DNA from: a virus
Taxonomy: Duplodnaviria; Caudoviricetes
IMG/VR virus record: IMGVR_UViG_3300005611_000001
Reading direction: 5' to 3' (one strand)
DNA length: 64,000 bases
Both the position numbers and the translations under genes were made by a program. The notes beneath the pieces are model-generated. The model saw only the letters and a list, made by a program, of their open reading frames with translations. It had not been told where the DNA came from and did no database searches. Position 1 is the first letter of the stretch. The number at the start of each line of letters is the position of its first letter. This document shows, piece after piece, positions 18,190-64,000 of the stretch.

Positions 18190-18192
18190 ATT

Positions 18193-22543: not shown

Positions 22544-22614
22544 ATATTACTCTCAAAGGAAGTTATGCCTCTTGCTTAATAAAAAGCGGCTTAAATAACC
22601 CTCCATACTCGCGT

Positions 22615-22703: not shown

Positions 22704-22728
22704 ATATCCATAATTTAGGAGAAATCCC

Positions 22729-23141: not shown

Positions 23142-23204
23142 GTTTTGGTCCTTTCATCAGCGCAAGTTTCTTTCCTATGACGAGTGGATTAAGGAGACTT
23201 GGTA

Positions 23205-24367: not shown

Positions 24368-24385
24368 ACATTTCGGAGTTGAAGA

Positions 24386-24586: not shown

Positions 24587-24798
24587 GCATTAAAGTAGAT
24601 CAAAGACGAGCAGTATTCGCAAAACTCAAAGACTATTGTATGCATAGTGGCGACCATGACTACATGGAAGTCACTGAGTGGTCGAACGGTGAAGGGTACG
24701 ACATCTGTATTGATCGCAAGAATGGCGGCGAGAAGTTCAGTCTCACTTACGGTGAGTGGGAACTGTTACAAGTGCTGATAAACTATAAGGGTGAGTGA
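24583..24798 (+). CDS. hypothetical protein
   Basis: [15 protein letters not shown]. Confidence 0.6.
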
Positions 24799-37515: not shown

Positions 37516-38381
37516 ATGTTTTAAGACCAATTCAAAAAGAGTTCTACGGTGATGACTATCGCTGGTTTTTTGGCACGGTCGTAAATGCTGTGCCGCCTAG
37601 TGGTCTTGAAGGGCGTGTCAAAGTTCGAATCTATGGCGTTCACAATCCACTGACAAATGAAATACCTGAAAAAGACTTGCCGTGGGCTCAAGTTCTGCTT
37701 CCGACAACCGAAGGTGGTTCGTCGGGTATTGGTCGAATTCCACAGCTAGTGACTGGTGCATTTGTGTTTGGAATTTTTCTTGACGGTATTTCGTCACAAA
37801 TTCCATTAGTTCTTGGTTCTTTGCCTCGCGTTGAGTTTCCTACTTCTATTCAAAGCGGAAGAGAACTGTCGTCTCCTGACAAGTTTCAATATGATCAAGG
37901 GCGTTTGCAAAACGTTGTTGCACAAACTTTCAAAGACGACAAAGAAGCAAAAGCAAGCGTCGGGCTAAGACGACAGCAAGCAATGAAGTTTTTTATCGAC
38001 AATGGATATGATTTGATTCATTCGGCTTCATTGACAGGTGCGATTGAAGCAAGCTCCGGATTTCAAACATATAACACAGATATAAACTCTGAAACAGTTG
38101 GTATTATTAATTGGAAAAATCGTGCAAAGACAGGCAGCAGGTTTAATGAACTTTTGAAATTTGCGGCACAATATTCTCCTAATTCTGATTGGAGACTATA
38201 CTCAATACAATTACAATTTGTGCTGTTTGAGTTGCGCAATCGATTTAATCTTGTTAATAGCAAATTTCTTTTTACCACAGATATAAAAAGCGCTAGTGAA
38301 ATTCTCAACCGTGACTACATAAAAGGTTCGAATCGCAGCGATCAGTTAGCGCAAAGAGCATATGAAGAGGTGTTGTCATAA
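37512..38381 (+). CDS. gp5: gp5 N-terminal OB-fold fused to tail-lysozyme-like domain
   Basis: GRVKVRIYGVH...LPWAQVLLP...G; C-terminal half resembles Phage_lysozyme2 with degenerate motif. Confidence 0.75.
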   Translation: MNVLRPIQKEFYGDDYRWFFGTVVNAVPPSGLEGRVKVRIYGVHNPLTNEIPEKDLPWAQVLLPTTEGGSSGIGRIPQLVTGAFVFGIFLDGISSQIPLVLGSLPRVEFPTSIQSGRELSSPDKFQYDQGRLQNVVAQTFKDDKEAKASVGLRRQQAMKFFIDNGYDLIHSASLTGAIEASSGFQTYNTDINSETVGIINWKNRAKTGSRFNELLKFAAQYSPNSDWRLYSIQLQFVLFELRNRFNLVNSKFLFTTDIKSASEILNRDYIKGSNRSDQLAQRAYEEVLS

Positions 38382-49400: not shown

Positions 49401-51845
49401 CGCGCATTGCTAGACTTGCGTGAGCAATATTCTTCTAGCTATACACTTCAGAAGAGAGAAAATTCTAATAGCGGTCGCTTCGTATCTCGTGTTGCGCCTT
49501 CTGATACACTTCGTCAGACAATTGGTAAGCGCATTGTTGACCTTGCTCTGATCCCATGGATTCGTTCTAGAAAGATTTATTTCCATGCGAAGGGGCTTAA
49601 GCCTAACACCAGATTTACACCATTCTTTGATGGTGAGAAAGTGACGCAATGGTGTCGTCAAGAAGTGACCTTTGTTCAGTATTCTGATCGCACAGACGAT
49701 GCTGGTAACCAACGTACACACCAAGCAATCACTGCACACCCAAGTGGATCTACCAGCCTTATCTCTGATGAGAACGGTGAGATCATTGGTTCTTTCTTTG
49801 TGCCTAACATTCGCCCTCAGTATTATCTGCCTAAAATCAATCAGAGCGCAAGATTAAAAGCACAAAACGAACGTTATCGTTCCGGTATTCGCGAATTCAA
49901 ACTGCTTGATATTGATACAAACGATTGGGCTGCTGCAGGTAGTAAAGCATTTACTTATTACTCTGCGAGCGGTACTGTCTGGAATCAAATTACTAATTTG
50001 AATTCAACTCGCCCAAGTGAGTACAATTGGCCGATTCCTTATTGGGCGAACTTCCCGCAGTCTTTCAGTTCTAAAGAACTACAAAACTATGTAAATCAGG
50101 TTCGCGAAGCTGAAGTTAAGCTGGTCGATCCTAAACTATCTGGTAAGTATGGTCCTGGCGCTGGTGCTCTGTCTGTTGCTGCTCTTCGCGGGCTTGACAA
50201 CACTGGGCAAATGTCGCAAGTTCTTTCTGACTATATCGACGTAGATCAGAATCAGTTTGCGTCTAATATTGTTTCGACAATGACTGCGCCTCAGAATCCA
50301 ATGGCACAGACTTTCTATGTCGACAATCAATTTGGTGTTGTGTTGACGAGTGTGCAGTTGTATTTCAGAACGAAGGACACTGGTAATCTTCCTGTTTCAA
50401 TTCATCTGCGCCCCGTAGTAAATGGTCGCCCGTCGAATCACGAGATAATTCCAGATTCTCATGTGTATTTGAATCCTGGCCAAGTAACAGCAATTGGTAC
50501 TAATCCAACTCTATCGGTGATTCAAGAAAGACCTACTACATTCACCTTTACTGAGCCTGTCTATCTTGATCCATGGACTCACTACGCAATTGTTGTGAGT
50601 TCACAATCTACTGAGTATGAGCTATTCAGCGCGAAGACTCAAGAGCCTGTGTTCGGTTCTACGTCTAGAATCGTTACAACTCAGCCTGCACCTGGATCAC
50701 TCTTCTTGCCTCAGAATGGTATGTTCTGGGTTGAGACTAAAGACCAAGACCTTATGTTCAAGTTGAAGCGCGCAAGCTTTGATCTTGGCGGCGCGAGTTT
50801 GATTCTTAAGAATGCAAACTTACCTGCTAAACTTCTGAACAGCAACCCTCTGCAGACATACAGTGGCACTAGAAAAGTTTATGTGCACCAAATGTGTCAC
50901 GGGCTTGAGCCTGGCGATTTAGCGTTTATCGACAGCGCAGAGAATATTGCTGGAATTACAGCGTCAACTTATCTCAACGGCAGTCATGTAGTTGATTCTG
51001 CTGACATTCATGGATTCACTTTCAGATATGATTCTGTCGGACCAGTTGCCAACAGTTCTTCAATTGGTGGCGGTGACAAGGTGCTTTCTCGTAGAAATGT
51101 AATCTTTAATGTGACCAACCCTTACATTGAGACTGTGATTCCTAACAATACTTCTATTGATGTTTCTGCTAAATTTACTGAAGGCAAAAACATTTCTAGT
51201 ACAAGAATCACTGCTTCAGGTCGTTGGACACAAGACGAAGAATATTCGCGTGTGACTCCAAGACAGAATGTCGAGTTTGCAACACCAAAAGCAATTTACA
51301 ATGTTGCTGCTGAAACATTAAATCTTGGTGCAGGCGTTGCTTCGGCTTATGTCAAAGTGGACCTAAAGACAGCAAACAACTATGTTTCTCCTGTTGTTGA
51401 TCTGCAAAGAGCATCACTTGTTCTTGTTGGTTTCTGTCAAGACAACCCTGATGTCACACCACACATCAATCCAGTCGCTGAAACTCAACCATCGGGTGGT
51501 ACAACTGGATCGAAACACATCACTGCGCCTGTGTTCCTCGATCAAGATGCTGTTGGTATTGAAGCACGAGCGCTCGTGAACATCCCTGACGCTGCTGATA
51601 TTGTAATGTATTATCGCACAGCGTCTGCGGATGAAAACATCTATGAAAAGTATTGGAAAGTTCAATCTCCTGTAGATGACATTCCTTTTGATAATAGCAT
51701 AAGATATCGTGACGCACAATGGCTTGCTGGCGGAAAAGGTGGTACTTTGAAACCATTCAATCAAGTGCAGGTTAAATTCGTGCTTAAAGGTGCTGATGCT
51801 GCACCTTCAATGAGAAATTTGAGACTTCGTTATCTGGCGGTGTAA
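46455..51845 (+). CDS. large virion structural / fibre protein (VrlC-like, DUF4815-type)
   Basis: YNDD....NY.QILF..GRALQARELTQLQ, ASPGADRY, RT.EESGNY, YYLPR.DK, YTM.DI.K. Confidence 0.85.
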   Translation: MATQFTSSTLSGIYNDDWSEADNYHQILFNNGRALQARELTQLQTIIFNELGRLGKNIFKEGATLSAGGIAVNADYEYIKVSATNAGGAFASIPVGTVFKNPNTNVEARVLEVKPRDGVNFILDTLYVQYINSGASAIGSTPTRFGDGDVLFDQSGGGYQITTETPNATGKGVRFTVGEGDFFIMGHFVHTQEQSLILSPYTEIANATVGFKVIQEVVTVNDNSALFDNASGIVNTASPGADRYRISLVLTTQDQIASDETFVFIATVENSKVTEEIEENDAYNKIEEFVALRTKEESGNYVVNPFVINVQDAVVGDSSLELVVSPGLAYINGYRISKSSSTKLNIPRPQQTETVANDVVPIVYGNYFISDSNRGLPNLDATQVNVYNAFGAGGSAIGTARIRAVQKDGANHRVYVFDISVDSDQSLRDAKSIGTGATDIFNLVREADGAKLYGVTDNDLLFPTSRPRPESFADVILTKQIHEGSLVADGSGIITLQTLSSGQAYTDTTLWVVASADSSARAHTVGAPTNSGRDVQISGLVAGKTYEVLSYVQKTATRKAKTLTTATATLPKQTDTVNNITYYEFTVPDIFEVDSAKANSSSGINMLPSLLLDDGQRDNFYAKGRLIMNPADSAPPNLFVNYRYFARGAGGDFFDATSYGNVPVAYKDIPNHVQKDGTIVNLRNYLDFRPDETSFGSASAIFDLPRNGDNITADVSYYLPRADKLLLTQEGEFQILLGQQAGNPQYKPTPDNALEVYKILLNANTLDENDLKVTPVEHKHYTMADIAKIEAKLDDLEEYTTLSLLELEQKLNAALDSDGIERVESGSQVDDFSDQTGADTKNPDYAAAIDPESKLIRPMIDEDNIRLIIDNTLSSNILKKGDNVYINYDSAEWAVQSLASRSVKINPFGLVDNVGTIKLSPTSDEWKESVQEAEKAVSGSGRLDRKQALLWNNWSWNWFGRSLENIEFDYAQIRSPNPRIRQRALLDLREQYSSSYTLQKRENSNSGRFVSRVAPSDTLRQTIGKRIVDLALIPWIRSRKIYFHAKGLKPNTRFTPFFDGEKVTQWCRQEVTFVQYSDRTDDAGNQRTHQAITAHPSGSTSLISDENGEIIGSFFVPNIRPQYYLPKINQSARLKAQNERYRSGIREFKLLDIDTNDWAAAGSKAFTYYSASGTVWNQITNLNSTRPSEYNWPIPYWANFPQSFSSKELQNYVNQVREAEVKLVDPKLSGKYGPGAGALSVAALRGLDNTGQMSQVLSDYIDVDQNQFASNIVSTMTAPQNPMAQTFYVDNQFGVVLTSVQLYFRTKDTGNLPVSIHLRPVVNGRPSNHEIIPDSHVYLNPGQVTAIGTNPTLSVIQERPTTFTFTEPVYLDPWTHYAIVVSSQSTEYELFSAKTQEPVFGSTSRIVTTQPAPGSLFLPQNGMFWVETKDQDLMFKLKRASFDLGGASLILKNANLPAKLLNSNPLQTYSGTRKVYVHQMCHGLEPGDLAFIDSAENIAGITASTYLNGSHVVDSADIHGFTFRYDSVGPVANSSSIGGGDKVLSRRNVIFNVTNPYIETVIPNNTSIDVSAKFTEGKNISSTRITASGRWTQDEEYSRVTPRQNVEFATPKAIYNVAAETLNLGAGVASAYVKVDLKTANNYVSPVVDLQRASLVLVGFCQDNPDVTPHINPVAETQPSGGTTGSKHITAPVFLDQDAVGIEARALVNIPDAADIVMYYRTASADENIYEKYWKVQSPVDDIPFDNSIRYRDAQWLAGGKGGTLKPFNQVQVKFVLKGADAAPSMRNLRLRYLAV

Positions 51846-52076
51846 ATGTCTAAATATGTACCAGTGAAAGGCTACTCTGGCTTAGTTCGTGATACAGAAA
51901 CAAATGCACTCATAAATACTAGTGTTTCTGAGATCGAACAAGCCAGAGAGCGAAAAAAACTAAAACAACAAAAACGACAACAAGAGAACGCATTAAGTTT
52001 AAAAGTCGAGCAAATAGAAAATGATGTTTGTGAAATAAAAAATATGCTCAAGACTTTGCTTGAAAAAAACTTATAA
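51846..52076 (+). CDS. small conserved coiled-coil protein
   Basis: V.G...LVRD.ETNALIN..., typical follower of VrlC-like genes. Confidence 0.75.
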   Translation: MSKYVPVKGYSGLVRDTETNALINTSVSEIEQARERKKLKQQKRQQENALSLKVEQIENDVCEIKNMLKTLLEKNL

Positions 52077-52079
52077 ATA
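52072..52079 (+). promoter_or_regulatory. T4-type late promoter
   Basis: TATAAATA before the giant ORF. Confidence 0.85.
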
Positions 52080-52111: not shown

Positions 52112-55100
52112 ATGCCAGTACGCCCACTAAAACACTTAAATGCAGGCGCGCTCAAAGAACTTCTGATTTCTGAAGAAGATTATCTTGCATATCGTGCCGG
52201 TGTTCATTTAGGTAAAATGAACATCGAAAGCGCTGCTGCATTGTCGCAAGACACGCGCGGCGAATTAGTGGGTATTTTCGAAGATACTTTCTATGGTTCT
52301 GGTTCTGGACCAGTGACAGGGCAGACATATGCTAGAGCATATTCTGTCACACATCTTTCTGATCAGTCTAGTGCGCATCAGGTCACAATTGAAGAGCCTA
52401 TAACACCTTTACCATCAACAGTAAATGTTAACGATTCGCTTGCAATTACTGTGTCTGGTAATGCGATTAGCACTGGTACTGGATATGAAGAAATTGAATA
52501 TCAGCTAGGCTTGTCTGGTACTGCAAGCTATAGCATTACAAGTGTATCTACAACACCTGCAGCAACAAACGTTGCTGGTCTTCAAGCTTCTTGGGAAGAT
52601 TATGCGACCGGAAGTCTTTCTGGTTCGTATGAAGCGACGTTTACTATTCAATTTACAGCTTCTGGTACCGTTAACGTTACGCTGAACGCATCTTCTACTG
52701 ACATAGAAAACGCTGCTCCTGGTGCTTCTGACAGTCATAACTTTTCTACAATAAGTGTACAGCCAGGTGTTCAACCAATCGCGCTTGGTACTGTCAGCGA
52801 AATTTATCAAAACAAAGTTGAAGACTATCCTCTTGATTTGACGAACAATCTCGTTCGCAACCCTTTCTATTGGGATACCTCTAGAAATGGTTTGAAAGAA
52901 ATGAGTGGCGCTGAGCTTGATGTTGTGTGCGAGCGTCTTGTTAAGAAAATCATGGCAAATGAAATGCCAGGTTCTTTCAGACTTTCTGCGTTTTCTCCTG
53001 GTGCTGATTGGCAAGTTTTTCTAGAAGATGTCTTCACTGATACCAGAGGTGACGGTACTACTTTCGACTATTCTATTTGGATTAGAACAAGTGGAACTGC
53101 ACCAACTCCTGTTAAACCAGTAGGTCCTGTCCGCACAAATAATATTTTCTCAGGAATTCGTGAATTAAGCGATCTTGAAACAGAATACACTTTCGGCGAA
53201 AGAATGAAGAAAGTGATTATGGACACTGGGATCGGCACATATGAAATGCGAAAGTCTGGTGACGGTCCTCCTACCGCACCAGGCACTTGGGTCGCAAGAG
53301 GTAGTGCTGTAGATACTCGTCAATCGTTTGCTGCTGGCGCTTCATACGAAGGCACTTCAACTTATGAAGTCCCTTATAATACTGATTATGCAGGAACTTA
53401 CACTGGTGATTATTCTGGGAATTATACTCCAAATTATGAAGGAACTTATGTAAACGAGTATTCTCCTCAGTATACAGATTCTTATACTGGCGATTATACT
53501 GGTGATTATACTGGAACGTTTGAAGGTGATTATGTAGAAACCTACACTGGTAATTTCTTGCAACAGTATACACAAGATTATACTGGTGATTATGTTGGCT
53601 CTTACACACCAACTTATGCTGGTACTGACATTGAAGAGCCATATACAACACCGTACGAAGGTCTAGAATCCGAAGAACAGTACACTGTAGATTTTGAGAC
53701 AGCAAACTATACCGGGAACTTTATCGAAGAATATTCTGGTGATTTCACTACGAATTACACAGGCGATTATGTTGCTACATACGTTGAAGAATTGTATGCA
53801 GGTAATTACGTCTCTGAATATACTGGTGATTATGAGTCACCATACACAGGCAACTTCTTAGAGACTTACGTCGATGATCAGTATACAGGCAACTATGAGT
53901 CTGACTATACTGGTGACTATGAATCTGCTTATACTGGAGATTTCACAGAAACGTATGTCGACGATCAGTACACGGGAGATTTTCTTCAGGAATATACTGG
54001 TGACTTTCTAACACAATATGTTGGTGATTTTCTTGAGACTTATGTTCAAGAGCAATATACTGGTGATTTTTCTGACACATACACTGACGACTTGTACACT
54101 GGTAATTTCTTAGAAAATTACACTGGTGATTATGAGTCTAATTACGCAACACAGTTTCAAGAGACCTATGTTGATGATCAGTACACAGGTAACTTCTTAG
54201 AAAACTACACTGGTGATTACGAGTCTGATTACACTGGTGATTTTACCGAAAATTATATTGACGATACTTACATCGGCAATTTTACCGAAGTATACACTGG
54301 TGATTATGTATCTGCATACGCTGGTGATTATATATCGAACTACATTGATGATCAATATACAGGAAATTATATTGACGCTTACACCGGCGACTTTACTGTA
54401 GTTTACAGTGGTGACTTCGAAACAAACTATGTCGATGAAATATATGCCGGTAACTTTGTAGAAGTTTACTCAGGTGATTTTACCGATAGCTATATTACAA
54501 GCTATGTCGAGACATATCTTCAAGCAGACTATACTGGTAATTATCAGTCTCCATATACTGGCGATTTCATCGAGACTTACACTGGCAACTTTGAGACGAA
54601 TTACACTCAAGAAATTTATTCTGGTGACTTTGAATCTACCTATGCTGGCGACTATGAATCTACATACACTGGTAATTATACCAGTGATTATGAAGTTGCG
54701 CCATATACAGGTGATTATCTAACAGACTACACCGGCGACTTCATCGAAACTTATACTGGTGAATTCATCGAAAACTATGTCGATGATCAGTATTCTGGTG
54801 ACTATGAATCTGCGTACACTGGTGATTTTCTTGAAACATATACTGGTGATTTTGCTCAAAACTTTATTGATGCAGTCTATACTGGTGATTACGAGTCTCC
54901 ATACACTGGCGATTTTACAGAATCGTTCGAAGGTCAATACACCGGTGATTATGAATCGTCATACACAGGTAACTTCTTAGAGACATATAGTGGTGATTAT
55001 GTAACCTCTTTTGCTGGTAATTATATCACTGATTATACAGTAGATTACACTGGTAATTTCATTGAAGAATATATCGACGATATTTACACTGGCGACTACG

Positions 55101-58100
55101 AGTCTGTGTATAGTGGCGATTTTGTTCAGTCGTTTGAAGGGCAGTATACTGGTAACTTCTTAGAAATTTATTCTGGCAATTTTGAGACAGTTTACTCAGG
55201 AGATTTCACTGAAACTTTTGAGGGGCAATACACTTCGTCTTACGAAATTGACTATACTGGTAACTTCCTAGAAGAGTATGTTGATGATCAGTATACAGGC
55301 AACTATGTTTCTGAATATACTGGCGATTTTCTTACGGACTACACTGGTAACTTTGTTGAAAATTATATCGATGGTGTTTATCAGAGCGATTACGAACAAA
55401 CTTATACAAACGAATTCGGTACAAATTATACTGGTGATTTCTTAGACACTTACATCAGCGATAACTACGAATCTTCTTACGATACAAACTACCAAGACAG
55501 TCTCTACGCTAGCCAATATACACAAGAGTATACAGGCGATTATAATCAGGCTTACATTCTAATTTTCCAAGAAGCGTATGCTCAAGCTGAACTAACATAT
55601 AGCAGCTACGAAGGTGCTGCAACATACACTGGCGATTATCTTTCGGATTATCAGTTTGATTATGAAAGAAGATATGAAAGCACCTTTACTACAATTTATA
55701 ATTCAGAACAATATGAAGCGACATTTGACAATCCCACTCCCTACGAGACTCTTTACAACACGCCTGAAGTTTACTCGCAAGGATATGTCGAAGAATACGT
55801 TGGAACTGTCACAACAGCTTATGGCGGTTCTGATTATGTTCAAGATTTTCAAGGCGGAGGTTACACAACTGGTGATCAAGATGACGTAGATACTACCACT
55901 TATTTTAGAGGTGATGTAGAGATTTACGTTGGTGATTATCTTGGATCAGGATATTACGAACAGAATTATCAGCAAGGTGATGGTAATTATGTTAATAGTC
56001 AGTATCTGCCTCCGAATACTCCCCCAGGTGTTGCCCCAAATCTCGCGGCTGGCGGCATAACATATGTCGCTGGGACAGGTGATGGAAATATTTATGCGCA
56101 AACTTATCAAAGCCCGAGCACCAGTTCGGGCGCTGACAACTTTCTAAACACTGACTATTATCTTGGCGGTGTGTCTTACGTCCACGGCTATGTGCCTGGT
56201 GGGGATGATAATTTTATAAATTATACCTCAGGGGTGCCCGTCGCTCCAGATCGTGGAACGGTTTATTATGGTCCTAGTGGCAGTTATTCCGGCGAGAGGT
56301 CAATTGACTACACAGGAACACTTTCAGGCAGTTATCAAGCTGATTATATATTCTTCTCTATATCATATACTGGGCCTACTGGTTCTTATGTTGGTGGTGG
56401 CTACGAAGAAGTATATATTTCAGAAGGCGATCCTATAATAGTGACCGGCGAACCTACTGGGTATTCAGGTCCCTTGACTGGCGATCCTGGATATCCTACC
56501 GTCACAACTTTCACAGGACCTGAAACTCTAAGTGATGATGTGGCAGTTGGTTATGTCCCTTCATATGTAGGAACTTATACACCAGCAGATTACATAGGTA
56601 CTTATGTCGGAGGTTTCGAAAGCCCAGATGCTTTAGGTTATACTGGTGATTATACTGGCAATTATGATGCTGACATCTATTCTCAGTTTTTTGAGTCCGG
56701 GCTCTTCTCTCTTGATGATATTTATGAAGGTGTGATTTATAGCCCGAATGTTTATATAGAAGGCGGCCGCGGGCCTAACCAACTTGGTATCCCGCAATTG
56801 CTCGGGACCTTCTATTATGGACCGCAAGGTGTATTTACTGTAGCATACTTAGGTCCTTTAGGTTGGTTTATTGGGTCAAACCCTGCTTTTTACATTGGTC
56901 CTTATGTGGATACTTATGAAACATTATTTGCAGAAAGAAGTAATGTATACGAACAATCTTATCAAGATGGTTACTTAGACAGCAGCTATCAAGGGGAAAA
57001 TTTCGAAAGCGGGGATGTTTTCGAAGCTCCTCCTTATTCTGGAGATGCCGCCAACTATTTTGGCATCGTCCCCGGGGGCGCCACCGTTAATTATATAACC
57101 AACCCGACTTATGGTGCTTTTCCCGATGGCGGACCCGACGCTGGATATCTCTCACTAGGTGCAGCATTTACTGACGCTATACCCTATACGTCTGGTTATA
57201 CAGACGATCTTCAACCAGGAGACGGTCAAGATAACGTCTATCTGTCTGGTTATGGCGGTGGTTATGAGACTTCAAATGAAGTTTACCAGGGTAATCTCGG
57301 CAATACTTATACAGTTATTAACGAGTATATTGGTGATTATCTCACTGGTGGTTTTATTGCGACTTTTTCCATTAGAGAACAATCGTATGGAGGTTATGAA
57401 GGATATGAAGGTAGCTATCTTGCACCTCCAATTACCACCTATTATGGTCCTTTTGGGAGCTTCGGCGCGCTTTCAGTGTATCAAGGCGTTCCCGCTTATA
57501 CTACAGGATATAGTTACCCCGACTCAATAGATTATTTGGGTTCGTATGTAGGTCCTCCCTCTACTTATTATGGTCCTGGCGGGGGTTTTAGTACACCTCC
57601 TTATGAAGCTGGTAGTACAGACCTTGAAACTTTTGCGGGGACATATGGTTCTGGCGGTGATACAACTGTATATGTCGGTCCAGGTAATCCATATGAAAGT
57701 CAAAACTTATATACTCAAAATTCATATGAAGGACCTGACCAACTTTTTGGGGCGAAGGGATTTGCTACACCTTATAGTGGTTTTGAAAACCAAACTACTT
57801 ATTACGGGCCTCTGCAATATTATATTGGGGGCGAGGAGATCATACTTCCTGGTGATATTATAATACCCGGGCAGCTGCCCGAGGTTGAGCCTCCAGCGTC
57901 TGGTACGACAGACGGTATTGCTTTTGTCGGTGATCTTGCACCAGTTACTTATGGTGCTCATTATATAAATGAAGGCCCTATAACGTATGAAGGCCCTAAA
58001 CTTTTAAATTCGAGTGGAATTTATGCAGGACCAGGCAATTTTGTGGGACCTATAGTTTATATAGGGCTTGTTTACTATGGTCCCGCCGGACAGTTCGCCG

Positions 58101-61100
58101 CTGGGACTGTGTATTCAAGTGACACGAATTATCTAGGTGAGTCTTTTGCTGTTGAATATCTTAGTGACTCATATGTAGATTATTTGACGCCCGGGCCCGC
58201 GGTAGCAAATTACAGTGGTCCTATCGGCACGTATTCCGGTAATATTGCCTATGCGGGCGCTGGGTTCATTGCTTATGAAGGTACCGATTACATTTCAGAT
58301 CACTATATCGATCCTTATGTCTCAACATATGTTAGCGATATAGTTACTCTTTATCTTGGACTTCATGATGGATCTTATTCAAGAAGCTATGTAGGAACTT
58401 ATATAGATGGGTCTGAATCTGGAGAATACATTTCAGAAGAATATGTCGGTACAGGCGACGCTTATCTAGGAAAAGTGACAATCGGACAGTTTGAAGGTGG
58501 TGGCTTCGTTGGTGGTGTCGAAGATCCATACGTTGTTTCTTATGACGAAGCAAATGCTGAAGAATTGTACACAGTTACTTATGAAGCTCAAGAGCTTGAA
58601 ACGTTTACGACTGCAGAATATGAAATAGGGCCCTTTCATCAGATCGAACAATGGCCTGATTATATGGGCCCATTGTCGGATCTTGAAGTTACATACACGG
58701 AAATATTAGGTTATTCAGAGATATACGGAAATACTTATGCTGGCGGTATTGTTAGCACATACACTCCTGCGGGCACAACTTATACAGGTAATTATACAAC
58801 ACCTGTACCTCGAGGTGTAGGAGATTATATTTTTGGTACAGCTAGTTATGATAACCAAGCATATCTTAGCCCCTTTCCTCAAGTCACCTATGTAGGTCCA
58901 ACGGGAATCTTTACAGCTGTTACTGATTATCAAGCTGGCTATGTTGGATTCATTCAAGCTAACTATGGTGGTTACTTAAGACAAATAGTGGGTCCTCCAA
59001 CTTTGGGCGATTATGCCACTAATTTTACTGCTGGTGTTTACGAACAAACATTTTCTTCTGGTCCTTATATCACAGAAGCGAATATTGTTTTCGAACAATC
59101 ATATGTGACGCTTCTAGATGCTGATTACCAGACTGCATACACAGGAACGTTTGCTGCAAACTATGAAGCAACTTATATTGGTGATTATCTAACAGATTAT
59201 GTTAGTGCAACAGGAAAAAATGTTGTCTACACTGGTAATTTTGTTGTCGATTACCTGACAGATTCTTATATCACAGATTACGAGCAAGAAGTTCCTGTCG
59301 ATCAATACGGCGGCGAATATTCAGAGACATATGAGTCTGATTATGAGGGTACTTATTCTGGCACTTATACTTCAGGGTATGAGGGAATCTATACTGGTAA
59401 CTTCACAGTAACATATTCTGGCGACTACATTACCGATTACATTGAAATTTACAGCGGCGATTTTGAAGGTCAATACACCGGTGACTTCTTAGACACCTAT
59501 ACTGGTAACTTCACTGATAGTTACGCTTCTGATTACGAAGATGTGTTTGAAGGTCAATACACTGGTGATTTCCTTGAAACGTTCACTGACTCTTTTGAAG
59601 ATATTTATGTTCAAGAGCAATACACCGGTAACTTCTTAGAAAACTATACTGGTGATTATGTTTCTGATTACACTGGTGATTATGAGTCTGATTACGTTGA
59701 CGATCAGTATAGCGGAAACTATGTTTCTGACTACACTGGTAACTTCTTGCAGAACTTCCTTGGTACTTACACTGGTGATTTCCTTCAAGTTTATACAGGA
59801 AATTATGAAACGGATTATGAGCAAGACGTTTATGCTGGTAATTACATTTCCGATTACACTGGTGATTTTGTAAATACTTACACTGGTAACTTTGTCGAAA
59901 ATTATGTTGACGATTTGTACACTGGTAACTTCTTAGAAGAATACGTTGGTAACTTTACTGACAACTTTGAAGGGCAGTATACTGGTGAATATCAATCTGA
60001 TTATATCGGTAACTTTGTTGAAGAATATGTTGGCAACTTCTTAGATACGTTCGAAGGTCAATACACCGGCGATTATGCTAGCGACTATGAAGGTAACTAT
60101 ACTTCGGATTACGAGACAAATTACGAAGTCACTTTCTTGGGTGTTTACTCCGGCGATTTCTTGGCGAGCTATACCGGCAACTTCATTGAAGAATATACTG
60201 GTAACTTCATAGCGCCGTTTGAAGGTCAATATACAGGTGACTATGTAGACGAATATTCTGGTAATTTTGTCGAAGAATATATCGGCGATTTCCTTGACAT
60301 TTTTGCTGGTCAGTATACCGGTGATTATGTTGATCAGTACACTGGCAACTTCATTGAAGAATACACTGGTGATTTTGTTGACGACTTTGAAGGTAGCTAT
60401 ACCGGCAATTATGTTTCTGATTACACTGGTAACTTTACTCAGAACTACACTGGTGACTTCACAGAAATCTTCGAAGGGCAGTATAGCGGCAACTATGTTT
60501 CTGGATATGAAGGCAACTTCATTGAAGAATACACTGGTGACTTTACTGACAACTTTGAAGGGCAGTATACAGGCAACTTCTTAGACACCTACACTGGAAA
60601 CTATACCGAAGAGTACACTGGTGACTTCACAGAAGTCTTTGAAGGGCAATATGCTACTGACTATGAAAGCGAATACACTGGTAACTTCGAAACAATCTAC
60701 ACTGGCGACTTTACCGATAACTTCCTGGGTGAATATACTGGTGAATTCCAAGATACTTTTGAAGGTCAGTACAGTGCAGAATTTACTGAAATTTACGAAG
60801 GACCCTTCGTACTAGTTTACACTGGTGATTTCGAAGAGCCTTATGAAGGGCTTTACACAGGCGATTTCATCGACAACTACAGTGGTGAATATGCGTCGGA
60901 TTACACTGGTGACTTCACTGCTCAGTTCGAAGGTCAATACACAGGTAACTTTGTAGTTGAATACACAGGTAACTTTATCGATCAGTATTCGGGCGACTTC
61001 ACAGAAACATTTGAAGGTCAGTACGTTGATCAATATCTGACTGATTATGTTGCTGAGTTTGTTGACACTTTCGCAGCACCGCAATATACAGGCGATTACG

Positions 61101-63856
61101 AGTCTACCTACACTGGTGATTTCTTAACTCAATACACTGGTGATTTTTCTGATACTTATGTCGACGATCAATACACTGGTAACTTTGCTGTAGTATACTC
61201 TGGTAACTTCACAGAAACTTATGAAGATCGAGCAACTATCGTTTTCGATGCTGTACAATATACTGGTGAATTCGAAGAAAACTATGAAACCGATACTTAC
61301 ACTGGTAATTTTGAAACAAATTACACGGGCGACTTCTTAGACACTTACACAGCAGAGTTTACAAATAACTTCATTTCTGCACAGTACGAAGCATCGTTTG
61401 TCGAGACATACGTCGGCGATTTCTTGTTGGCGTACACTGGTAACTTTGTAGCATCATTTGAAGCCGCTGTGCAATATGAAACTTCGTTTGAATCAAACTA
61501 TGTTGATAATTTATACACAGGCGATGCTGTAGTACAATACACAGGAAACTTCGATTTCTCGTTTGAAGGTCAGTACACAGGCGACTACACTTCTGGATAC
61601 GAGGGTAATTTTGCAGGGCAATACACTGGTGACTTCTTAGTTGGCTTTGCTGGTGTTTACACAGGCGACTTCACTCAAATTTATACCGGCGATTTCTCTC
61701 AGACATACACCGGTGATTTTACTGCAAACTTCCAAGCAACTTACACAGGCAACTTTACACAGAATTTCGCAGGTGTTTATACCGGCGATTTCTCTCAGAC
61801 ATACACCGGTGATTTTGTCGGTACTGATCTAGAAACTTATACTAGTCCTGATGCTTGGACTTCATATTTTGAAAGCCTTAGTGCCCCAGTTTATTACTGG
61901 CGGGAGTTTAACGGTGTACCTACTACTCTTTATTGGAATAGTACGTTTATAGGAGTCCCACCTCCTAGCAGCCCTGCTACATGGACTACTGGCGGATATG
62001 AATATCAGCGCGCAATCAATCCTTTTACAACAGCCACTACAAAGGCGGGAACTGATAGGTGGTATGCTGTAAGAAGACGCTCTGTTTCTGTTAACTACAC
62101 CGGCGATTACTCTGCTGCTTTTGCTGAAAACTTTGTAGCGTCTGGAACAACGCAGTTCACTGGACCTAGTTACACTGGTGATTTTACATCACCTTTCTCT
62201 GCTCCAATTTACACTGGTGATTTTGCTGAAAACTTTGTAGCGTCTGGAACAACGCAGTTCACTGGTAACTTTACAGCAAGCTATGAAGCACCCACATATA
62301 TTGGTAACTTCTTAGCAACATACACTGGTGACTATGCAAGCAATTTTGATTCTCCTTTCCAGAATACTTTTGCAGGCTCTTCATACACTAGTACGTTTGT
62401 CGAAACTTATCAAGGTGATTTTTCGCTTTCTTTCGAAGGGCAATACCTAGGTAATTATCTGAGCCAGTACGAAGGCTCTTATCTTGGTGACTTCGTTCAA
62501 AGCTATACAGGCAATTTTGCAGTTGAATATACTGGTAACTTTATTGCTCAGTTTGAAGGGCAGTACACAGGAAACTTTGCTGCAGAATATACTGGTAATT
62601 TCTTAGCAACTTTTACTTCTGACAATCCTCAAGACTACACAGGCAATTATATAGGTACTTTTGCAGCAAGCTTTAACGCAGAATATACTGGTGATTTCGT
62701 TCTAGAGTACACTGGTGACTTCTTAGAAGATTATCAAGCAGACTTTGTTGAAATCTTCGAAGGTCAATACGTTGGTGATTTCTCAGATACTTATGAAGGC
62801 AATTTCCTTACTGACTATACTGGTAACTTTACTCAAATCTTTGAGGGGCAGTACACAGGTAACTTCATCGACATTTATGTCGCTGATTACGAGACTACAT
62901 ACATTGATGATCAGTACACTGGTAATTTCATAGAGACATATGAAAGCGACTATGAATCTCCTTATCAAGGCGATTTCACTGCAGGATTTACTGATCAGTA
63001 TACGGGCAATTACCTTGATGAATATACAGGTGATTATGCTGGCACATATACTTCAGAATACGCTTCTGATTATGCTGGTACATACGTCGGAACTTTCGTA
63101 GAAATTTACGGCGGCGCTTATCAGTCTGAATACACTGCTGAATTTACAGAGAATTTTGAAGGTCAATATACCGGCAACTTCTTAGAAGAGTATGTTGGAA
63201 ACTTTGAAACAGTTTATACTGGTGACTTTACAGAAATCTTTGAAGGCCAATATACAGGTGATTTCCTTGAGACATATATCGGAAATTATCAAGATGAATA
63301 CACTGGAGATTTCATTCAAAATTATGAGCAAGATTATTCTGGCAATTTCCAAAGCATTTACACTGGTAACTTTACTGAAGCGTATAGCGGCGACTTTGTA
63401 GCTACATATACTGAAACAAATACGATTGATTACACTGGTAATTACCTTGCTACATTCAGCGATACATATAGCGGAAATTACACACCAGATTATGAAGCAG
63501 ATGGTGTTAATGAAGCTTATGCACAAGAGTATATTGAGCAAGATTACGAATCAGAATATCTGTCTGATTTTGACGGCAGCATATATACAAGAACAGTAGA
63601 GTCTACTTACGAAGGCGCTGCACAAGGGTTACCGTTTAGTGCAGACTATAGTGGTGCTGAAATCACTGAAGATTACACTAGTGATTTCGAAGGCGACGAT
63701 GACATTGAAACTTATCAGGACGATTATACAGGGATTAATTATGAAACCGCATATGCGGATGACATTGAAGTAACAGTTGCTTATCTAAGAGAAGCAGTTC
63801 TTTCTTCAACGCCAACAACAATAGAAACTTACACACTTTATGTTCGTGTTGCTTAA
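52112..63856 (+). CDS. 3914-aa acidic Tyr/Phe-tetrad repeat protein (probable late structural fibre)
   Basis: ~400-aa non-repetitive N-terminus, then ~3400 aa of mostly Y/F-x-x-x units (YTGD, YTGN, FEGQ), short C-terminal TIETYTLYVRVA. Confidence 0.85.
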   Translation: MPVRPLKHLNAGALKELLISEEDYLAYRAGVHLGKMNIESAAALSQDTRGELVGIFEDTFYGSGSGPVTGQTYARAYSVTHLSDQSSAHQVTIEEPITPLPSTVNVNDSLAITVSGNAISTGTGYEEIEYQLGLSGTASYSITSVSTTPAATNVAGLQASWEDYATGSLSGSYEATFTIQFTASGTVNVTLNASSTDIENAAPGASDSHNFSTISVQPGVQPIALGTVSEIYQNKVEDYPLDLTNNLVRNPFYWDTSRNGLKEMSGAELDVVCERLVKKIMANEMPGSFRLSAFSPGADWQVFLEDVFTDTRGDGTTFDYSIWIRTSGTAPTPVKPVGPVRTNNIFSGIRELSDLETEYTFGERMKKVIMDTGIGTYEMRKSGDGPPTAPGTWVARGSAVDTRQSFAAGASYEGTSTYEVPYNTDYAGTYTGDYSGNYTPNYEGTYVNEYSPQYTDSYTGDYTGDYTGTFEGDYVETYTGNFLQQYTQDYTGDYVGSYTPTYAGTDIEEPYTTPYEGLESEEQYTVDFETANYTGNFIEEYSGDFTTNYTGDYVATYVEELYAGNYVSEYTGDYESPYTGNFLETYVDDQYTGNYESDYTGDYESAYTGDFTETYVDDQYTGDFLQEYTGDFLTQYVGDFLETYVQEQYTGDFSDTYTDDLYTGNFLENYTGDYESNYATQFQETYVDDQYTGNFLENYTGDYESDYTGDFTENYIDDTYIGNFTEVYTGDYVSAYAGDYISNYIDDQYTGNYIDAYTGDFTVVYSGDFETNYVDEIYAGNFVEVYSGDFTDSYITSYVETYLQADYTGNYQSPYTGDFIETYTGNFETNYTQEIYSGDFESTYAGDYESTYTGNYTSDYEVAPYTGDYLTDYTGDFIETYTGEFIENYVDDQYSGDYESAYTGDFLETYTGDFAQNFIDAVYTGDYESPYTGDFTESFEGQYTGDYESSYTGNFLETYSGDYVTSFAGNYITDYTVDYTGNFIEEYIDDIYTGDYESVYSGDFVQSFEGQYTGNFLEIYSGNFETVYSGDFTETFEGQYTSSYEIDYTGNFLEEYVDDQYTGNYVSEYTGDFLTDYTGNFVENYIDGVYQSDYEQTYTNEFGTNYTGDFLDTYISDNYESSYDTNYQDSLYASQYTQEYTGDYNQAYILIFQEAYAQAELTYSSYEGAATYTGDYLSDYQFDYERRYESTFTTIYNSEQYEATFDNPTPYETLYNTPEVYSQGYVEEYVGTVTTAYGGSDYVQDFQGGGYTTGDQDDVDTTTYFRGDVEIYVGDYLGSGYYEQNYQQGDGNYVNSQYLPPNTPPGVAPNLAAGGITYVAGTGDGNIYAQTYQSPSTSSGADNFLNTDYYLGGVSYVHGYVPGGDDNFINYTSGVPVAPDRGTVYYGPSGSYSGERSIDYTGTLSGSYQADYIFFSISYTGPTGSYVGGGYEEVYISEGDPIIVTGEPTGYSGPLTGDPGYPTVTTFTGPETLSDDVAVGYVPSYVGTYTPADYIGTYVGGFESPDALGYTGDYTGNYDADIYSQFFESGLFSLDDIYEGVIYSPNVYIEGGRGPNQLGIPQLLGTFYYGPQGVFTVAYLGPLGWFIGSNPAFYIGPYVDTYETLFAERSNVYEQSYQDGYLDSSYQGENFESGDVFEAPPYSGDAANYFGIVPGGATVNYITNPTYGAFPDGGPDAGYLSLGAAFTDAIPYTSGYTDDLQPGDGQDNVYLSGYGGGYETSNEVYQGNLGNTYTVINEYIGDYLTGGFIATFSIREQSYGGYEGYEGSYLAPPITTYYGPFGSFGALSVYQGVPAYTTGYSYPDSIDYLGSYVGPPSTYYGPGGGFSTPPYEAGSTDLETFAGTYGSGGDTTVYVGPGNPYESQNLYTQNSYEGPDQLFGAKGFATPYSGFENQTTYYGPLQYYIGGEEIILPGDIIIPGQLPEVEPPASGTTDGIAFVGDLAPVTYGAHYINEGPITYEGPKLLNSSGIYAGPGNFVGPIVYIGLVYYGPAGQFAAGTVYSSDTNYLGESFAVEYLSDSYVDYLTPGPAVANYSGPIGTYSGNIAYAGAGFIAYEGTDYISDHYIDPYVSTYVSDIVTLYLGLHDGSYSRSYVGTYIDGSESGEYISEEYVGTGDAYLGKVTIGQFEGGGFVGGVEDPYVVSYDEANAEELYTVTYEAQELETFTTAEYEIGPFHQIEQWPDYMGPLSDLEVTYTEILGYSEIYGNTYAGGIVSTYTPAGTTYTGNYTTPVPRGVGDYIFGTASYDNQAYLSPFPQVTYVGPTGIFTAVTDYQAGYVGFIQANYGGYLRQIVGPPTLGDYATNFTAGVYEQTFSSGPYITEANIVFEQSYVTLLDADYQTAYTGTFAANYEATYIGDYLTDYVSATGKNVVYTGNFVVDYLTDSYITDYEQEVPVDQYGGEYSETYESDYEGTYSGTYTSGYEGIYTGNFTVTYSGDYITDYIEIYSGDFEGQYTGDFLDTYTGNFTDSYASDYEDVFEGQYTGDFLETFTDSFEDIYVQEQYTGNFLENYTGDYVSDYTGDYESDYVDDQYSGNYVSDYTGNFLQNFLGTYTGDFLQVYTGNYETDYEQDVYAGNYISDYTGDFVNTYTGNFVENYVDDLYTGNFLEEYVGNFTDNFEGQYTGEYQSDYIGNFVEEYVGNFLDTFEGQYTGDYASDYEGNYTSDYETNYEVTFLGVYSGDFLASYTGNFIEEYTGNFIAPFEGQYTGDYVDEYSGNFVEEYIGDFLDIFAGQYTGDYVDQYTGNFIEEYTGDFVDDFEGSYTGNYVSDYTGNFTQNYTGDFTEIFEGQYSGNYVSGYEGNFIEEYTGDFTDNFEGQYTGNFLDTYTGNYTEEYTGDFTEVFEGQYATDYESEYTGNFETIYTGDFTDNFLGEYTGEFQDTFEGQYSAEFTEIYEGPFVLVYTGDFEEPYEGLYTGDFIDNYSGEYASDYTGDFTAQFEGQYTGNFVVEYTGNFIDQYSGDFTETFEGQYVDQYLTDYVAEFVDTFAAPQYTGDYESTYTGDFLTQYTGDFSDTYVDDQYTGNFAVVYSGNFTETYEDRATIVFDAVQYTGEFEENYETDTYTGNFETNYTGDFLDTYTAEFTNNFISAQYEASFVETYVGDFLLAYTGNFVASFEAAVQYETSFESNYVDNLYTGDAVVQYTGNFDFSFEGQYTGDYTSGYEGNFAGQYTGDFLVGFAGVYTGDFTQIYTGDFSQTYTGDFTANFQATYTGNFTQNFAGVYTGDFSQTYTGDFVGTDLETYTSPDAWTSYFESLSAPVYYWREFNGVPTTLYWNSTFIGVPPPSSPATWTTGGYEYQRAINPFTTATTKAGTDRWYAVRRRSVSVNYTGDYSAAFAENFVASGTTQFTGPSYTGDFTSPFSAPIYTGDFAENFVASGTTQFTGNFTASYEAPTYIGNFLATYTGDYASNFDSPFQNTFAGSSYTSTFVETYQGDFSLSFEGQYLGNYLSQYEGSYLGDFVQSYTGNFAVEYTGNFIAQFEGQYTGNFAAEYTGNFLATFTSDNPQDYTGNYIGTFAASFNAEYTGDFVLEYTGDFLEDYQADFVEIFEGQYVGDFSDTYEGNFLTDYTGNFTQIFEGQYTGNFIDIYVADYETTYIDDQYTGNFIETYESDYESPYQGDFTAGFTDQYTGNYLDEYTGDYAGTYTSEYASDYAGTYVGTFVEIYGGAYQSEYTAEFTENFEGQYTGNFLEEYVGNFETVYTGDFTEIFEGQYTGDFLETYIGNYQDEYTGDFIQNYEQDYSGNFQSIYTGNFTEAYSGDFVATYTETNTIDYTGNYLATFSDTYSGNYTPDYEADGVNEAYAQEYIEQDYESEYLSDFDGSIYTRTVESTYEGAAQGLPFSADYSGAEITEDYTSDFEGDDDIETYQDDYTGINYETAYADDIEVTVAYLREAVLSSTPTTIETYTLYVRVA

Positions 63857-63870: not shown

Positions 63871-64000
63871 ATGGGTTACAAATATTTAGATAATGCTTTT
63901 TGGGAAGCAGATGACAGATCGGTAATGAAATGTATTCGTTTGACTGATCAACCTGATGGTAAGCAGAAAAAAGAAGTTCTACAACTTGCTAGAATTCGAT
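63871..64000 (+). CDS. hypothetical protein, truncated by window end
   Basis: GGAG RBS; MGYKYLDNAFWEADDRSVMKCIRL... Confidence 0.6.
   Translation, partial: MGYKYLDNAFWEADDRSVMKCIRLTDQPDGKQKKEVLQLARIR

What the first reader, a model, noticed from the sequence alone, without database searches (positions are those of the whole stretch)
53340..63790. Giant acidic protein built on a strict aromatic-every-fourth-residue repeat
Seen: ~3400 aa in which Tyr or Phe recurs every 4 residues (YTGD-YTGN-FLET-YVDDQ), with occasional 5-mers. K, R, H, C, M and W are nearly absent from the tracts, and D, E, T, G and N dominate. The gene has its own T4 late promoter and follows the VrlC-like fibre gene. Inference: a very long beta-solenoid or triple-beta fibre with aromatic ladders and a polyanionic surface. 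It could bind cations (Ca/Fe), minerals or polysaccharide, or act as a long tether or anti-predation appendage. At ~11.7 kb it is a large genomic investment that I cannot match to a characterised family.
Basis: partly seen in the sequence, partly recalled or inferred. Interest (0 to 1): 0.8.

Follow-up and report, generated by a model that had tools for sequence, protein, structure and literature searches.

The report
Giant tyrosine-repeat phage tail fibre
This 3,914-residue gene of an uncultured aquatic T4-like phage is the giant, extremely acidic member of a large, unnamed family of virion fibre proteins. In this family a body with an aromatic residue every fourth position, from about 40 to about 3,500 residues long, is inserted between an N-terminal anchor domain and a C-terminal strand that is predicted to fold back into that domain.

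Summary
One ORF (52112-63856, 3,914 aa, net charge about -572) has Tyr/Phe exactly 4 residues apart in 85-92% of aromatic spacings, within three tracts totalling about 2,120 aa. A 1,120-aa Gly/Pro/Tyr block and a 107-aa Trp/Arg mini-domain are not periodic.

It is not an orphan. Its N-terminal domain finds 316 protein clusters, almost all unnamed metagenomic viral proteins. Complete members share that domain, a period-4 [YF]-x-G-[DN] body of 318-4,046 aa total length, and a nearly invariant C-terminus, ETYTLYVR[VIT][AS].

AlphaFold2 on a 557-aa relative, and ESM Atlas models of 328-392-aa relatives, place the C-terminal strand inside the N-terminal domain. The body is therefore an out-and-back excursion.

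The gene sits in the host-recognition cluster behind the baseplate protein VrlC, with a TATAAATA late promoter.

Contigs from four other studies confirm the tracts: 95-98% identity, 32 synonymous against 7 non-synonymous differences. They diverge at the central block and the mini-domain.

Best reading: a long adsorption fibre with a conserved shaft and variable host-contact modules. The shaft fold is unresolved, and acidity is a lineage trait.

The scan had read this same stretch before (e1-5388321).

The parts
46455..51845 (+). Upstream DUF4815/VrlC-type baseplate protein (1,796 aa). It marks the start of the host-recognition cluster.
   Evidence: Pfam PF16075 E=1e-57; phrog_358/877; tblastn hits to 'putative VrlC protein' of pelagiphage Mosig and to C48C1; PMC7029224 places the cluster between VrlC and gp14
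51846..52076 (+). Conserved 76-aa helical ORF between VrlC and the giant gene. Its relative in C48C1 is annotated 'virion structural protein'.
   Evidence: Alignment A5: 36% identity to the C48C1 protein and 25-28% to the 71-aa genes of L002/L003, with 9 invariant columns
52072..52079 (+). T4-type late promoter motif TATAAATA, about 33 nt upstream of the ATG
   Evidence: 6 copies in the window. Four lie 23-33 nt upstream of + strand structural gene starts (34197, 42510, 45096, 52112; ORF list).
52112..63856 (+). Giant fibre gene, 3,914 aa (P0001)
52112..53362 (+). N-terminal anchor domain (residues 1-417), the family-defining domain
   Evidence: phmmer: 316 clusters with E<=1e-3 and 77 with E<=1e-30; AF2 model with mean pLDDT 89.5
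52289..52768 (+). Ig-like/cohesin-like beta-sandwich inserted in the anchor domain (residues about 60-219). It is present only in the acidic sub-lineage.
   Evidence: VIA-align Z 8.1-8.7 to BspA_C, cohesins and Gram-positive pilins over model residues 86-220. Absent from most relatives, whose match to query residues about 215-440 begins near their residue 70-110.
53363..55711 (+). Periodic tract A (residues 418-1200): octapeptides in 29-aa super-repeats (three Y-T-G-[DN]-[FY]-x-x-x units plus a YVDDQ-type 5-mer)
55748..59113 (+). Central irregular block (residues 1213-2334): G 16%, Y 13%, P 7%, with recurring YYGPxGxF motifs. It varies between strains.
   Evidence: Depth is near zero in all four other studies over 55870-59125.
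59114..61813 (+). Periodic tract B (residues 2335-3234): 28-aa super-repeats (FEGQ plus three octapeptides)
61814..62134 (+). Trp/Arg-containing mini-domain (residues 3235-3341), a strain-variable cassette
   Evidence: The listed contig pieces of the three runs that cover tract B (X2, X5, X6) stop at 61750-61816 and resume at 62117-62275. One X2 contig carries 574 nt in place of 301 nt here.
62210..63526 (+). Periodic tract C (residues 3367-3805)
63527..63811 (+). Acidic, less regular tail (residues 3806-3900)
   Evidence: 27 D/E in residues 3801-3900
63812..63853 (+). C-terminal closure strand PTTIETYTLYVRVA, nearly invariant across the family. It is predicted to pair with the exit strand of the anchor domain.
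   Evidence: In relative P0080 the equivalent residues 535-557 have pLDDT 96-97 and form strand E529-555, alongside strand E245-269. Structural alignments span residues 43-557 and 3-557.
63871..64000 (+). Start of the conserved downstream gene, which runs off the window. It is homologous to the ~150-aa helical protein that follows the fibre gene in relatives.
   Evidence: Alignment A3: 35% identity to the C48C1 protein, with a shared FW motif. Same gene order in L001-L004.

Best explanation
The gene encodes a virion fibre of an uncultured aquatic T4-like myophage. By gp32, the closest relative is Phage C48C1, followed by the OM43 phage Melnitz and then cyanomyophages. It is the giant, hyper-acidic extreme of an unnamed fibre family.

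Architecture (shown by sequence; the contact itself is predicted):
- An N-terminal domain of about 290 aa, here with an extra Ig-like insert.
- The last roughly 20 residues (ETYTLYVRVA), which together with that domain form one compact anchor.
- Everything in between, which leaves and re-enters the anchor through two adjacent antiparallel strands. The body is thus an out-and-back excursion whose length evolution has scaled from about 40 to about 3,500 residues.

Mechanism (inferred):
- The conserved anchor docks on the VrlC-type baseplate periphery.
- The period-4 [YF]-x-G-[DN] tracts form a beta-rich shaft. Here they take the form of Y-T-G-[DN]-[FY]-x-x-x octapeptides.
- The strain-variable central Gly/Pro/Tyr block and the Trp/Arg mini-domain are the host-contact modules, held far from the tail.
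- The fibre enlarges the capture radius and makes the first reversible host contact.
- The dense negative charge of this lineage keeps such a long fibre extended, untangled and non-sticky in Mg/Ca-rich water.

The shaft fold itself is not resolved. Length estimates for the competing folds are given in the full report.
For: Context:
- gp5-, gp6-, gp25/53-like baseplate genes and VrlC lie directly upstream.
- A TATAAATA motif lies about 33 nt before the ATG.
- Relatives lie between VrlC and the neck genes gp13/gp14, next to a Peptidase_S74 fibre gene. This is the 'host recognition cluster' of PMC7029224.

Family:
- 316 clusters match the N-terminal domain.
- 81 complete proteins in hand (P0001 and 80 relatives) share the C-terminal motif and an aromatic content of 13-26%, mostly with spacing 4 dominant. 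The 80 relatives are 318-4,046 aa long, median 747.

Closure:
- In the AF2 model of P0080 the C-terminal strand has pLDDT 96-97 and lies beside the exit strand.
- VIA-align matches to single-domain proteins span residues 43-557.
- ESM Atlas models of viral proteins of 328-392 aa align over 272-300 residues, spanning residues 3-557.

Stalk-plus-head layout:
- P0030 has periodic tracts of 160 and 173 aa at the two ends of a 1,650-aa irregular core.
- In P0003 the best-matching windows lie 276 aa from each end.

Selection and variability:
- Contigs of four studies match the tracts at 95-98% identity.
- Of the 39 best-supported differences, 32 are synonymous and 7 non-synonymous.
- The central block and the mini-domain are not shared between these populations.
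Against: - No virion proteomics, expression data or micrograph exists for any member.
- The anchor domain has no convincing structural relative. The best match is Z 7.1 to MACPF C-terminal/MABP beta-prisms, which is background level; T4 gp11 scores only Z 3.2. Foldseek finds nothing. Attachment to the baseplate is therefore inferred from gene order alone.
- AF2 gives pLDDT of about 33 for the whole body of P0080, so a folded shaft is not shown.
- In P0001 the two limbs are unequal: tract A has 783 aa, while tracts B and C together have 1,339 aa. The best mirror offset is +660 aa, so a simple one-hairpin model does not fit this member.
- The charges of the two halves of the body correlate (r=0.75) rather than complement each other.
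- The closure could equally be intermolecular, which a monomer model cannot distinguish.
Confidence: 0.6

Rival explanations
1. A conventional one-way trimeric fibre. The octapeptide tracts would form a gp5C-like triple-stranded beta-helix (about 125 nm for 2,120 periodic residues). The N-terminal domain would sit at the baseplate, and the conserved C-terminus would act as a distal trimerisation or registration element, like the fibritin foldon.
For: The octapeptide matches the published gp5C consensus at all four described positions (PMC3004832): G at position a; D/N at b (68-90%); a bulky hydrophobic residue at g (Y/F where gp5C has V); a polar residue at h (T/S/E).

hhalign places the repeat profile on the Gp5_C repeat of the window's own gp5-like protein, with 41% identity over 22 columns.

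Phage fibres are usually parallel trimers whose folding starts at the C-terminus (PMC3004832).
Against: - The hhalign probability is only 2%. Pfam Gp5_C does not hit the protein, and a repeat HMM finds no solved structure.
- The period conserved across the family is 4, with G-[DN] in every tetrad in many members. Super-periods of 8, 12, 24, 25, 28 and 29 differ between members.
- Two predictors put the C-terminus in the N-terminal domain.
- Distal ends of fibres are normally the variable part. Here the end is nearly invariant and the middle varies.
Confidence: 0.2
2. A single-chain beta-solenoid, with one 28-29-residue coil per super-repeat (about 36 nm in total) and seven stacked aromatic ladders.
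For: Strong 28- and 29-aa autocorrelation in tracts A-C, with seven aromatic-led units per super-repeat.
Against: The super-period is not conserved in the family. Members show 8, 12, 24 or 25, or only 4, so it more likely records duplication history. A solenoid puts its two ends far apart, which conflicts with the predicted N-C closure. AF2 usually models solenoids well but gave pLDDT of about 33 for the body of a relative.
Confidence: 0.07
3. The body is not a rigid fold. It would be a flexible, Tyr-rich 'sticker' polymer, comparable to adhesive or low-complexity Tyr/Gly/Asn proteins. It may be modified by the sugar-transferase-like and oxygenase-like genes downstream, and would act as a sticky or elastic tether tied to the anchor at both ends.
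For: No confident structure from AF2 for the body. Composition is dominated by Y, G, T, N and D. An earlier scan note, e1-5388324, reports that a glycogenin-like transferase and a prolyl-hydroxylase-like gene travel with this fibre gene. Here only the gene order and a weak GT-A hint (E=0.025) were checked.
Against: Register is kept over hundreds of residues, and there is residue-level purifying selection (32 synonymous against 7 non-synonymous differences). Aliphatic residues recur at fixed positions. Pro is nearly absent from the tracts. These features are typical of folded beta structure.
Confidence: 0.1
4. Assembly artefact of expanded or collapsed repeats, or a non-functional ORF.
For: No single short-read contig spans the gene.
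Against: Repeat copies are only 60-79% identical in DNA. Independent contigs of four studies tile the tracts at 95-98% identity with mostly synonymous differences. An 11.7-kb open frame with a conserved N-terminal domain and C-terminal motif is matched by relatives of 2,282-4,046 aa on other contigs.
Confidence: 0.02

Closest known systems
Phage C48C1 (OQ984149.1, Kyanoviridae) CDS0201, 'hypothetical protein', 3,347 aa
   Same: It has the same N-terminal domain (38-40% identity) and the same C-terminal ETYTLYVRVA. Its body also has an aromatic residue every fourth position. Its position in the tail-fibre region is the same, and it is followed by the same ~150-aa helical gene. It is the only relative in the 50,697-record phage collection.
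   Different: Its body is basic and Arg-rich (YSRNFAGN and YTRTRxS units; net charge of the first half +166). It carries several globular inserts, lacks the Ig-like insert in the anchor, and has 12/24-aa super-periods.
T4 gp5 C-terminal triple-stranded beta-helix (VXGXXXXX octapeptides; Pfam Gp5_C PF06715)
   Same: An eight-residue unit with G, then D/N, a large hydrophobic residue two positions before the G, and a polar residue between them (against PMC3004832). The window's own gp5-like protein carries units such as VTGDFNVD.
   Different: No profile-level similarity. Aromatic residues replace Val and also occupy position c. The family-wide period is 4, not 8. The length is over 2,000 residues against 140. 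The ends are predicted to meet.
T4 gp37 distal tip: collar domain D10 plus needle D11
   Same: The topology is the same. In gp37 the collar is built from residues 811-881 plus the C-terminal residues 1010-1026, and the needle is the out-and-back excursion between them (PMC6957217). Here too, anchor plus C-terminal strand enclose the body.
   Different: No detectable homology. Similarity to the collar-fold protein gp11 is only Z 3.2 over 49 residues. There are no His-x-His iron sites: His makes up 0.3%. In gp37 the excursion is 128 residues; here it is about 3,480.
Host recognition cluster of marine T4-like myophages (pelagimyophages and cyanomyophages; Zaragoza-Solas et al. 2020, PMC7029224)
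   Same: The gene lies directly downstream of VrlC, where that paper places the tail fibres and glycosyltransferases of these phages.
   Different: The paper does not describe this protein family, its repeat or its closure. Searches for its words 'tyrosine' and 'giant' in that text found nothing.

Membership tests
Unnamed marine myophage fibre family (C48C1 CDS0201-like) | Homologous N-terminal anchor domain | tested here: met
   phmmer of residues 1-440: best hits E=1.6e-141 to 1e-97, 316 clusters with E<=1e-3; 38% identity to C48C1
Unnamed marine myophage fibre family (C48C1 CDS0201-like) | C-terminal motif ETYTLYVR[VIT][AS] at the very end | tested here: met
   P0001 ends in IETYTLYVRVA. 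The motif is present in nearly all complete relatives.
Unnamed marine myophage fibre family (C48C1 CDS0201-like) | Aromatic-rich body with dominant spacing of 4 and tetrad consensus [YF]-x-G-[DN] | tested here: met
   P0001: 68% of gaps overall and 85-92% in the tracts. Family: 5,176 tetrads with G 37% at position 3 and N/D 47% at position 4.
Unnamed marine myophage fibre family (C48C1 CDS0201-like) | Location between VrlC and the neck genes, followed by a ~150-aa helical gene | tested here: met
   VrlC lies upstream. The start of the downstream gene is homologous to the one in relatives. The neck genes lie beyond the window and were seen only in relatives.
T4 gp5C-type triple-stranded beta-helix (Pfam Gp5_C) | Octapeptide with G at position a, D/N at b, a hydrophobic residue at g and a polar residue at h | tested here: met
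   Position statistics of G-type units against the consensus quoted in PMC3004832. This is a match at motif level only.
T4 gp5C-type triple-stranded beta-helix (Pfam Gp5_C) | Recognised by the family profile | tested here: not met
   Pfam scan of the whole protein finds 0 families at E<=0.01, while the window's gp5-like protein does hit Gp5_C. hhalign probability 2%.
T4 gp5C-type triple-stranded beta-helix (Pfam Gp5_C) | Three intertwined parallel chains | not testable with these tools
   No usable multimer model was obtained. This needs a trimer prediction with alignments, or an experiment.
T4 gp37-type collar plus out-and-back needle | Base domain completed by the C-terminal segment, with the fibre as an excursion between them | tested here: met
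   Predicted only: AF2 of relative P0080, VIA-align ranges and ESM Atlas models of short relatives.
T4 gp37-type collar plus out-and-back needle | Collar fold shared with gp10, gp11 and gp12 | tested here: inconclusive
   T4 gp11 (1el6) Z 3.2, 49 residues aligned, 29% identity; a Klebsiella phage baseplate chain also Z 3.2. This is far below the background level.
T4 gp37-type collar plus out-and-back needle | His-x-His metal sites along the needle | tested here: not met
   Only 10 His in 3,914 residues, and none in the periodic tracts.
RTX / beta-roll calcium-binding repeats (GGxGxDxUx) | Nonapeptide period with a GGxGxD turn | tested here: not met
   The period is 4/8 with 28/29-aa super-repeats. 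No Pfam hit of any kind.

The most novel reading that the evidence does not exclude
The period-4 [YF]-x-G-[DN] body is a fibre fold not yet described. It would be an out-and-back beta ribbon, possibly trimerised into a six-stranded tube, grown out of one beta-hairpin of the anchor domain. Evolution can lengthen it about 100-fold without touching either attachment point. In this phage it would give a polyanionic line of 0.2-0.4 micrometres, longer than the whole T4 tail, that fishes for sparse hosts.
Probability: 0.25. Interest if true: 0.8.

Novelty: new variant of a known kind. Interest (0 to 1): 0.62.

Why it matters
Tail fibres decide which host a phage can infect, yet the fibres of the abundant marine T4-like phages are mostly unannotated. 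This work defines a large family by three simple marks: an anchor domain, aromatic period-4 tracts and the ETYTLYVR end. These marks can be used to annotate hundreds of 'hypothetical' genes.

The family also shows an unusual design. Both ends are fixed in one domain while the middle is free to grow from tens to thousands of residues.

If the shaft fold is new, it adds a building principle for long protein rods. The variable central modules are also natural targets for predicting hosts of uncultured phages.

This member invests 11.7 kb in one protein, for comparison with the 156-kb genome of its nearest relative C48C1. It is the most extreme case of length and charge found here, apart from one longer relative of 4,046 aa.

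Tried and rejected
- Megablast of the baseplate region against 50,697 phage records: no match.
- Pfam and PHROGs on the whole protein and on five separate parts: no family. Pfam on the relatives P0002, P0003 and P0030: none.
- Complex prediction with three copies of residues 2619-2870: no verdict, because the fold confidence was too low. It counts neither for nor against trimerisation.
- Foldseek of the N-domain model against PDB and BFVD: only weak hits to the Ig-like insert. Foldseek of the P0080 model against PDB: nothing at E<=0.001.
- phmmer of a tract, an HMM of the 56-aa repeat and an HMM of the N-terminal domain against PDB sequences: only chance-level hits.
- Protein atlas search by features: only unnamed viral clusters.
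- Test for charge complementarity between the two halves of the body: rejected, since the halves correlate at r=0.75.
- Mirror-register test on P0001 itself: no register at offset 0; the best offset is +660 aa.
- Literature searches for C48C1, for tetrapeptide-repeat fibres and for tyrosine-rich T4-like structural proteins: nothing relevant.
- No whole genome is held for this window.
- Expression: no RNA holder was listed for the 10-kb stretch. This says nothing about expression.
- Earlier findings looked up by sequence: nothing.
Full report
**1. What is there**

The window carries the baseplate module of a T4-like myovirus. It includes a tail-tube cap, gp53/gp25-like wedge genes, a gp5-like hub split over three genes, gp6, a further wedge subunit and a 1,796-aa DUF4815/VrlC protein.

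Directly behind VrlC comes a conserved 76-aa helical ORF. It is followed by a TATAAATA motif at 52072-52079 and then one ORF, 52112-63856, of 3,914 aa.

The composition is extreme: Y 13.4%, T 12.1%, G 11.9%, D 8.2%, E 7.8% and F 6.5%, with only 85 K, R, H, M, W and C residues together. Net charge is about -572.

Tyr/Phe follow each other at a distance of exactly 4 in 523 of 774 gaps. About 10% would be expected by chance.

The periodic part is not the whole body. There are three tracts:
- residues 418-1200;
- residues 2335-3234;
- residues 3367-3805.

In these tracts 85-92% of gaps are 4, and 96% are 4 or 5. The tracts are separated by a 1,120-aa Gly/Pro/Tyr block with recurring YYGPxGxF motifs and by a 107-aa Trp/Arg mini-domain.

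**2. Anatomy of the repeat**

Tetrads alternate between a Gly type (Y-T-G-[DN]) and a non-Gly type ([FY]-x-x-x). The unit is therefore an octapeptide.

Three octapeptides plus a seventh unit make the super-repeat:
- 29 aa in tract A, where the seventh unit is a YVDDQ-type 5-mer;
- 28 aa in tracts B and C, where the seventh unit is an FEGQ tetrad.

The DNA copies are only 60-79% identical. The array is therefore old and maintained, not a recent expansion or an assembly collapse.

**3. It belongs to a large unnamed family**

Residues 1-440 find 316 clusters at 50% identity, 77 of them below E=1e-30. None carries a name beyond 'hypothetical protein'.

Complete members share three marks:
- the N-terminal domain;
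- an aromatic-rich body (13-26% Y/F), mostly with spacing 4 dominant and tetrad consensus [YF]-x-G-[DN];
- a nearly invariant C-terminus, ETYTLYVR[VIT][AS].

Total length runs from 318 to 4,046 aa, with a median of 747.

Body charge runs from -0.19 to +0.11 per residue. The acidic members are the sub-lineage that also carries an Ig-like insert in the anchor.

The only relative in GenBank phage records is a 3,347-aa 'hypothetical protein' of Phage C48C1. It is basic but otherwise built the same way.

Super-periods differ between members: 8, 12, 24, 25, 28 and 29. The conserved structural period is therefore 4.

**4. Both ends meet**

AlphaFold2 on the 557-aa relative P0080, using a 54-sequence alignment, gives these results:
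- The N-terminal domain is modelled above pLDDT 90.
- The last 23 residues reach pLDDT 96-97. They form a long strand (529-555) beside the long exit strand of the domain (245-269).
- The body in between scores about 33.

Two further results support the closure. Structural alignments of this model to single-domain proteins span residues 43-557. ESM Atlas models of viral proteins of only 328-392 aa align over 272-300 residues, spanning residues 3-557.

Two independent predictors thus make the C-terminal strand part of the anchor domain. Members with almost no body also exist. The body is therefore an insertion in one beta-hairpin: it leaves the anchor and comes back.

T4 gp37 has this topology on a small scale. 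Its collar is formed by residues 811-881 plus 1010-1026, and the needle lies between them (PMC6957217).

A stalk-plus-head layout is visible in relatives. P0030 has periodic tracts of 160 and 173 aa at the two ends of a 1,650-aa irregular core. In P0003 the best-matching windows lie 276 aa from either end.

P0001 itself is not symmetric. Tract A resembles tract B at a mirror offset of +660 aa, and the mini-domain plus tract C are extra.

**5. Evidence from other samples**

Twenty runs from 15 studies of sea, estuary, fresh and urban water hold parts of the sequence.

Contigs from four of these studies were laid on the gene. They tile the N-terminal domain and the periodic tracts at 95-98% identity. 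Cover almost vanishes over 55870-59125, the central block. The listed pieces of the three runs that cover tract B (X2, X5, X6) break at 61750-61816 and resume at 62117-62275, which is exactly the mini-domain. One contig carries 574 nt there in place of 301 nt.

Of the 39 best-supported differences, 33 are at third codon positions, and 32 are synonymous against 7 non-synonymous.

The tracts are thus under purifying selection at the residue level, while the two irregular modules are swapped between strains. This is the usual signature of a conserved shaft with variable receptor-binding parts.

**6. Mechanism**

Shown:
- the gene context;
- family membership;
- the repeat anatomy;
- selection on the tracts and variability of the two irregular modules.

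Predicted:
- closure of the anchor by the C-terminal strand.

Inferred:
- The anchor docks on the VrlC-type baseplate.
- The tracts form a beta-rich shaft.
- The central block and the mini-domain touch the host.
- The long reach raises the encounter rate with sparse cells.
- The negative charge of this lineage keeps the fibre extended and non-sticky.

The shaft fold is open. Three models give different lengths:
- A gp5C-like triple beta-helix would give about 125 nm. This uses 110 A per 187 residues from PMC3004832.
- An out-and-back ribbon scaled on the 150-A gp37 needle would give 200-400 nm.
- A 28-aa-per-coil solenoid would give about 36 nm.

The octapeptide matches the published gp5C consensus at all four described positions. 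However, no profile method supports homology, and the family period is 4.

**7. Comparison and novelty**

As a kind of object, this is a phage tail fibre in the host-recognition cluster described for pelagimyophages and cyanomyophages (PMC7029224). The family, its period-4 aromatic repeat and the closed topology are not described in Pfam or PHROGs, in the solved-structure sequences, or in the papers searched.

I rate it a new variant of a known kind.

The downstream trio reported in e1-5388324 was checked here only for gene order and for the first gene.

Noticed in passing
window 51846-52076 (+): A 76-aa helical ORF lies between VrlC and the fibre gene. It is conserved in C48C1 (where it is annotated 'virion structural protein') and in two metagenomic relatives. 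Its size and coiled-coil character recall the small T4 fibre chaperone gp57A, but no homology was tested.
   Followed up: partly
window 37512-41745 (+): The functions of T4 gp5 appear to be split over three consecutive genes: a 289-aa gp5 N-terminal (hub) piece; a 634-aa protein with an Amidase_2 domain instead of a lysozyme; and a 487-aa protein carrying the Gp5_C beta-helix repeats.
   Followed up: no
window 61814-62134 (+): The Trp/Arg mini-domain is a replaceable cassette. A contig from another study has 574 nt of unrelated sequence where the window has 301 nt, with 95%-identical tracts on both sides.
   Followed up: partly
window 52289-52768 (+): An Ig-like/cohesin-like beta-sandwich is inserted in the anchor domain. 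It is found only in the acidic sub-lineage (P0003, P0006-P0016). Structural Z is 8.1-8.7 to bacterial adhesin and pilin domains.
   Followed up: partly
L002 10001-19857, L003 10001-15785 and L001 14668-27107: In relatives the fibre gene is always followed by five small genes of about 150, 270, 222, 240 and 118 aa. The 279-aa one has a weak GT-A glycosyltransferase hint (E=0.025). An earlier scan note describes a glycogenin-like transferase and a prolyl-hydroxylase-like protein here. Given 523 Tyr in the fibre, Tyr glycosylation would be worth testing.
   Followed up: partly
window 34156, 42480, 45061, 52072 (+): Four of the six TATAAATA motifs in the window sit 23-33 nt upstream of + strand structural gene starts. 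This is consistent with T4-type late promoters in this phage.
   Followed up: partly
L001 (Phage C48C1) 14668-24711: The C48C1 homologue carries several globular inserts. These include a duplicated ~45-residue segment and repeated ~100-aa modules between short periodic tracts. None is recognised by Pfam.
   Followed up: no
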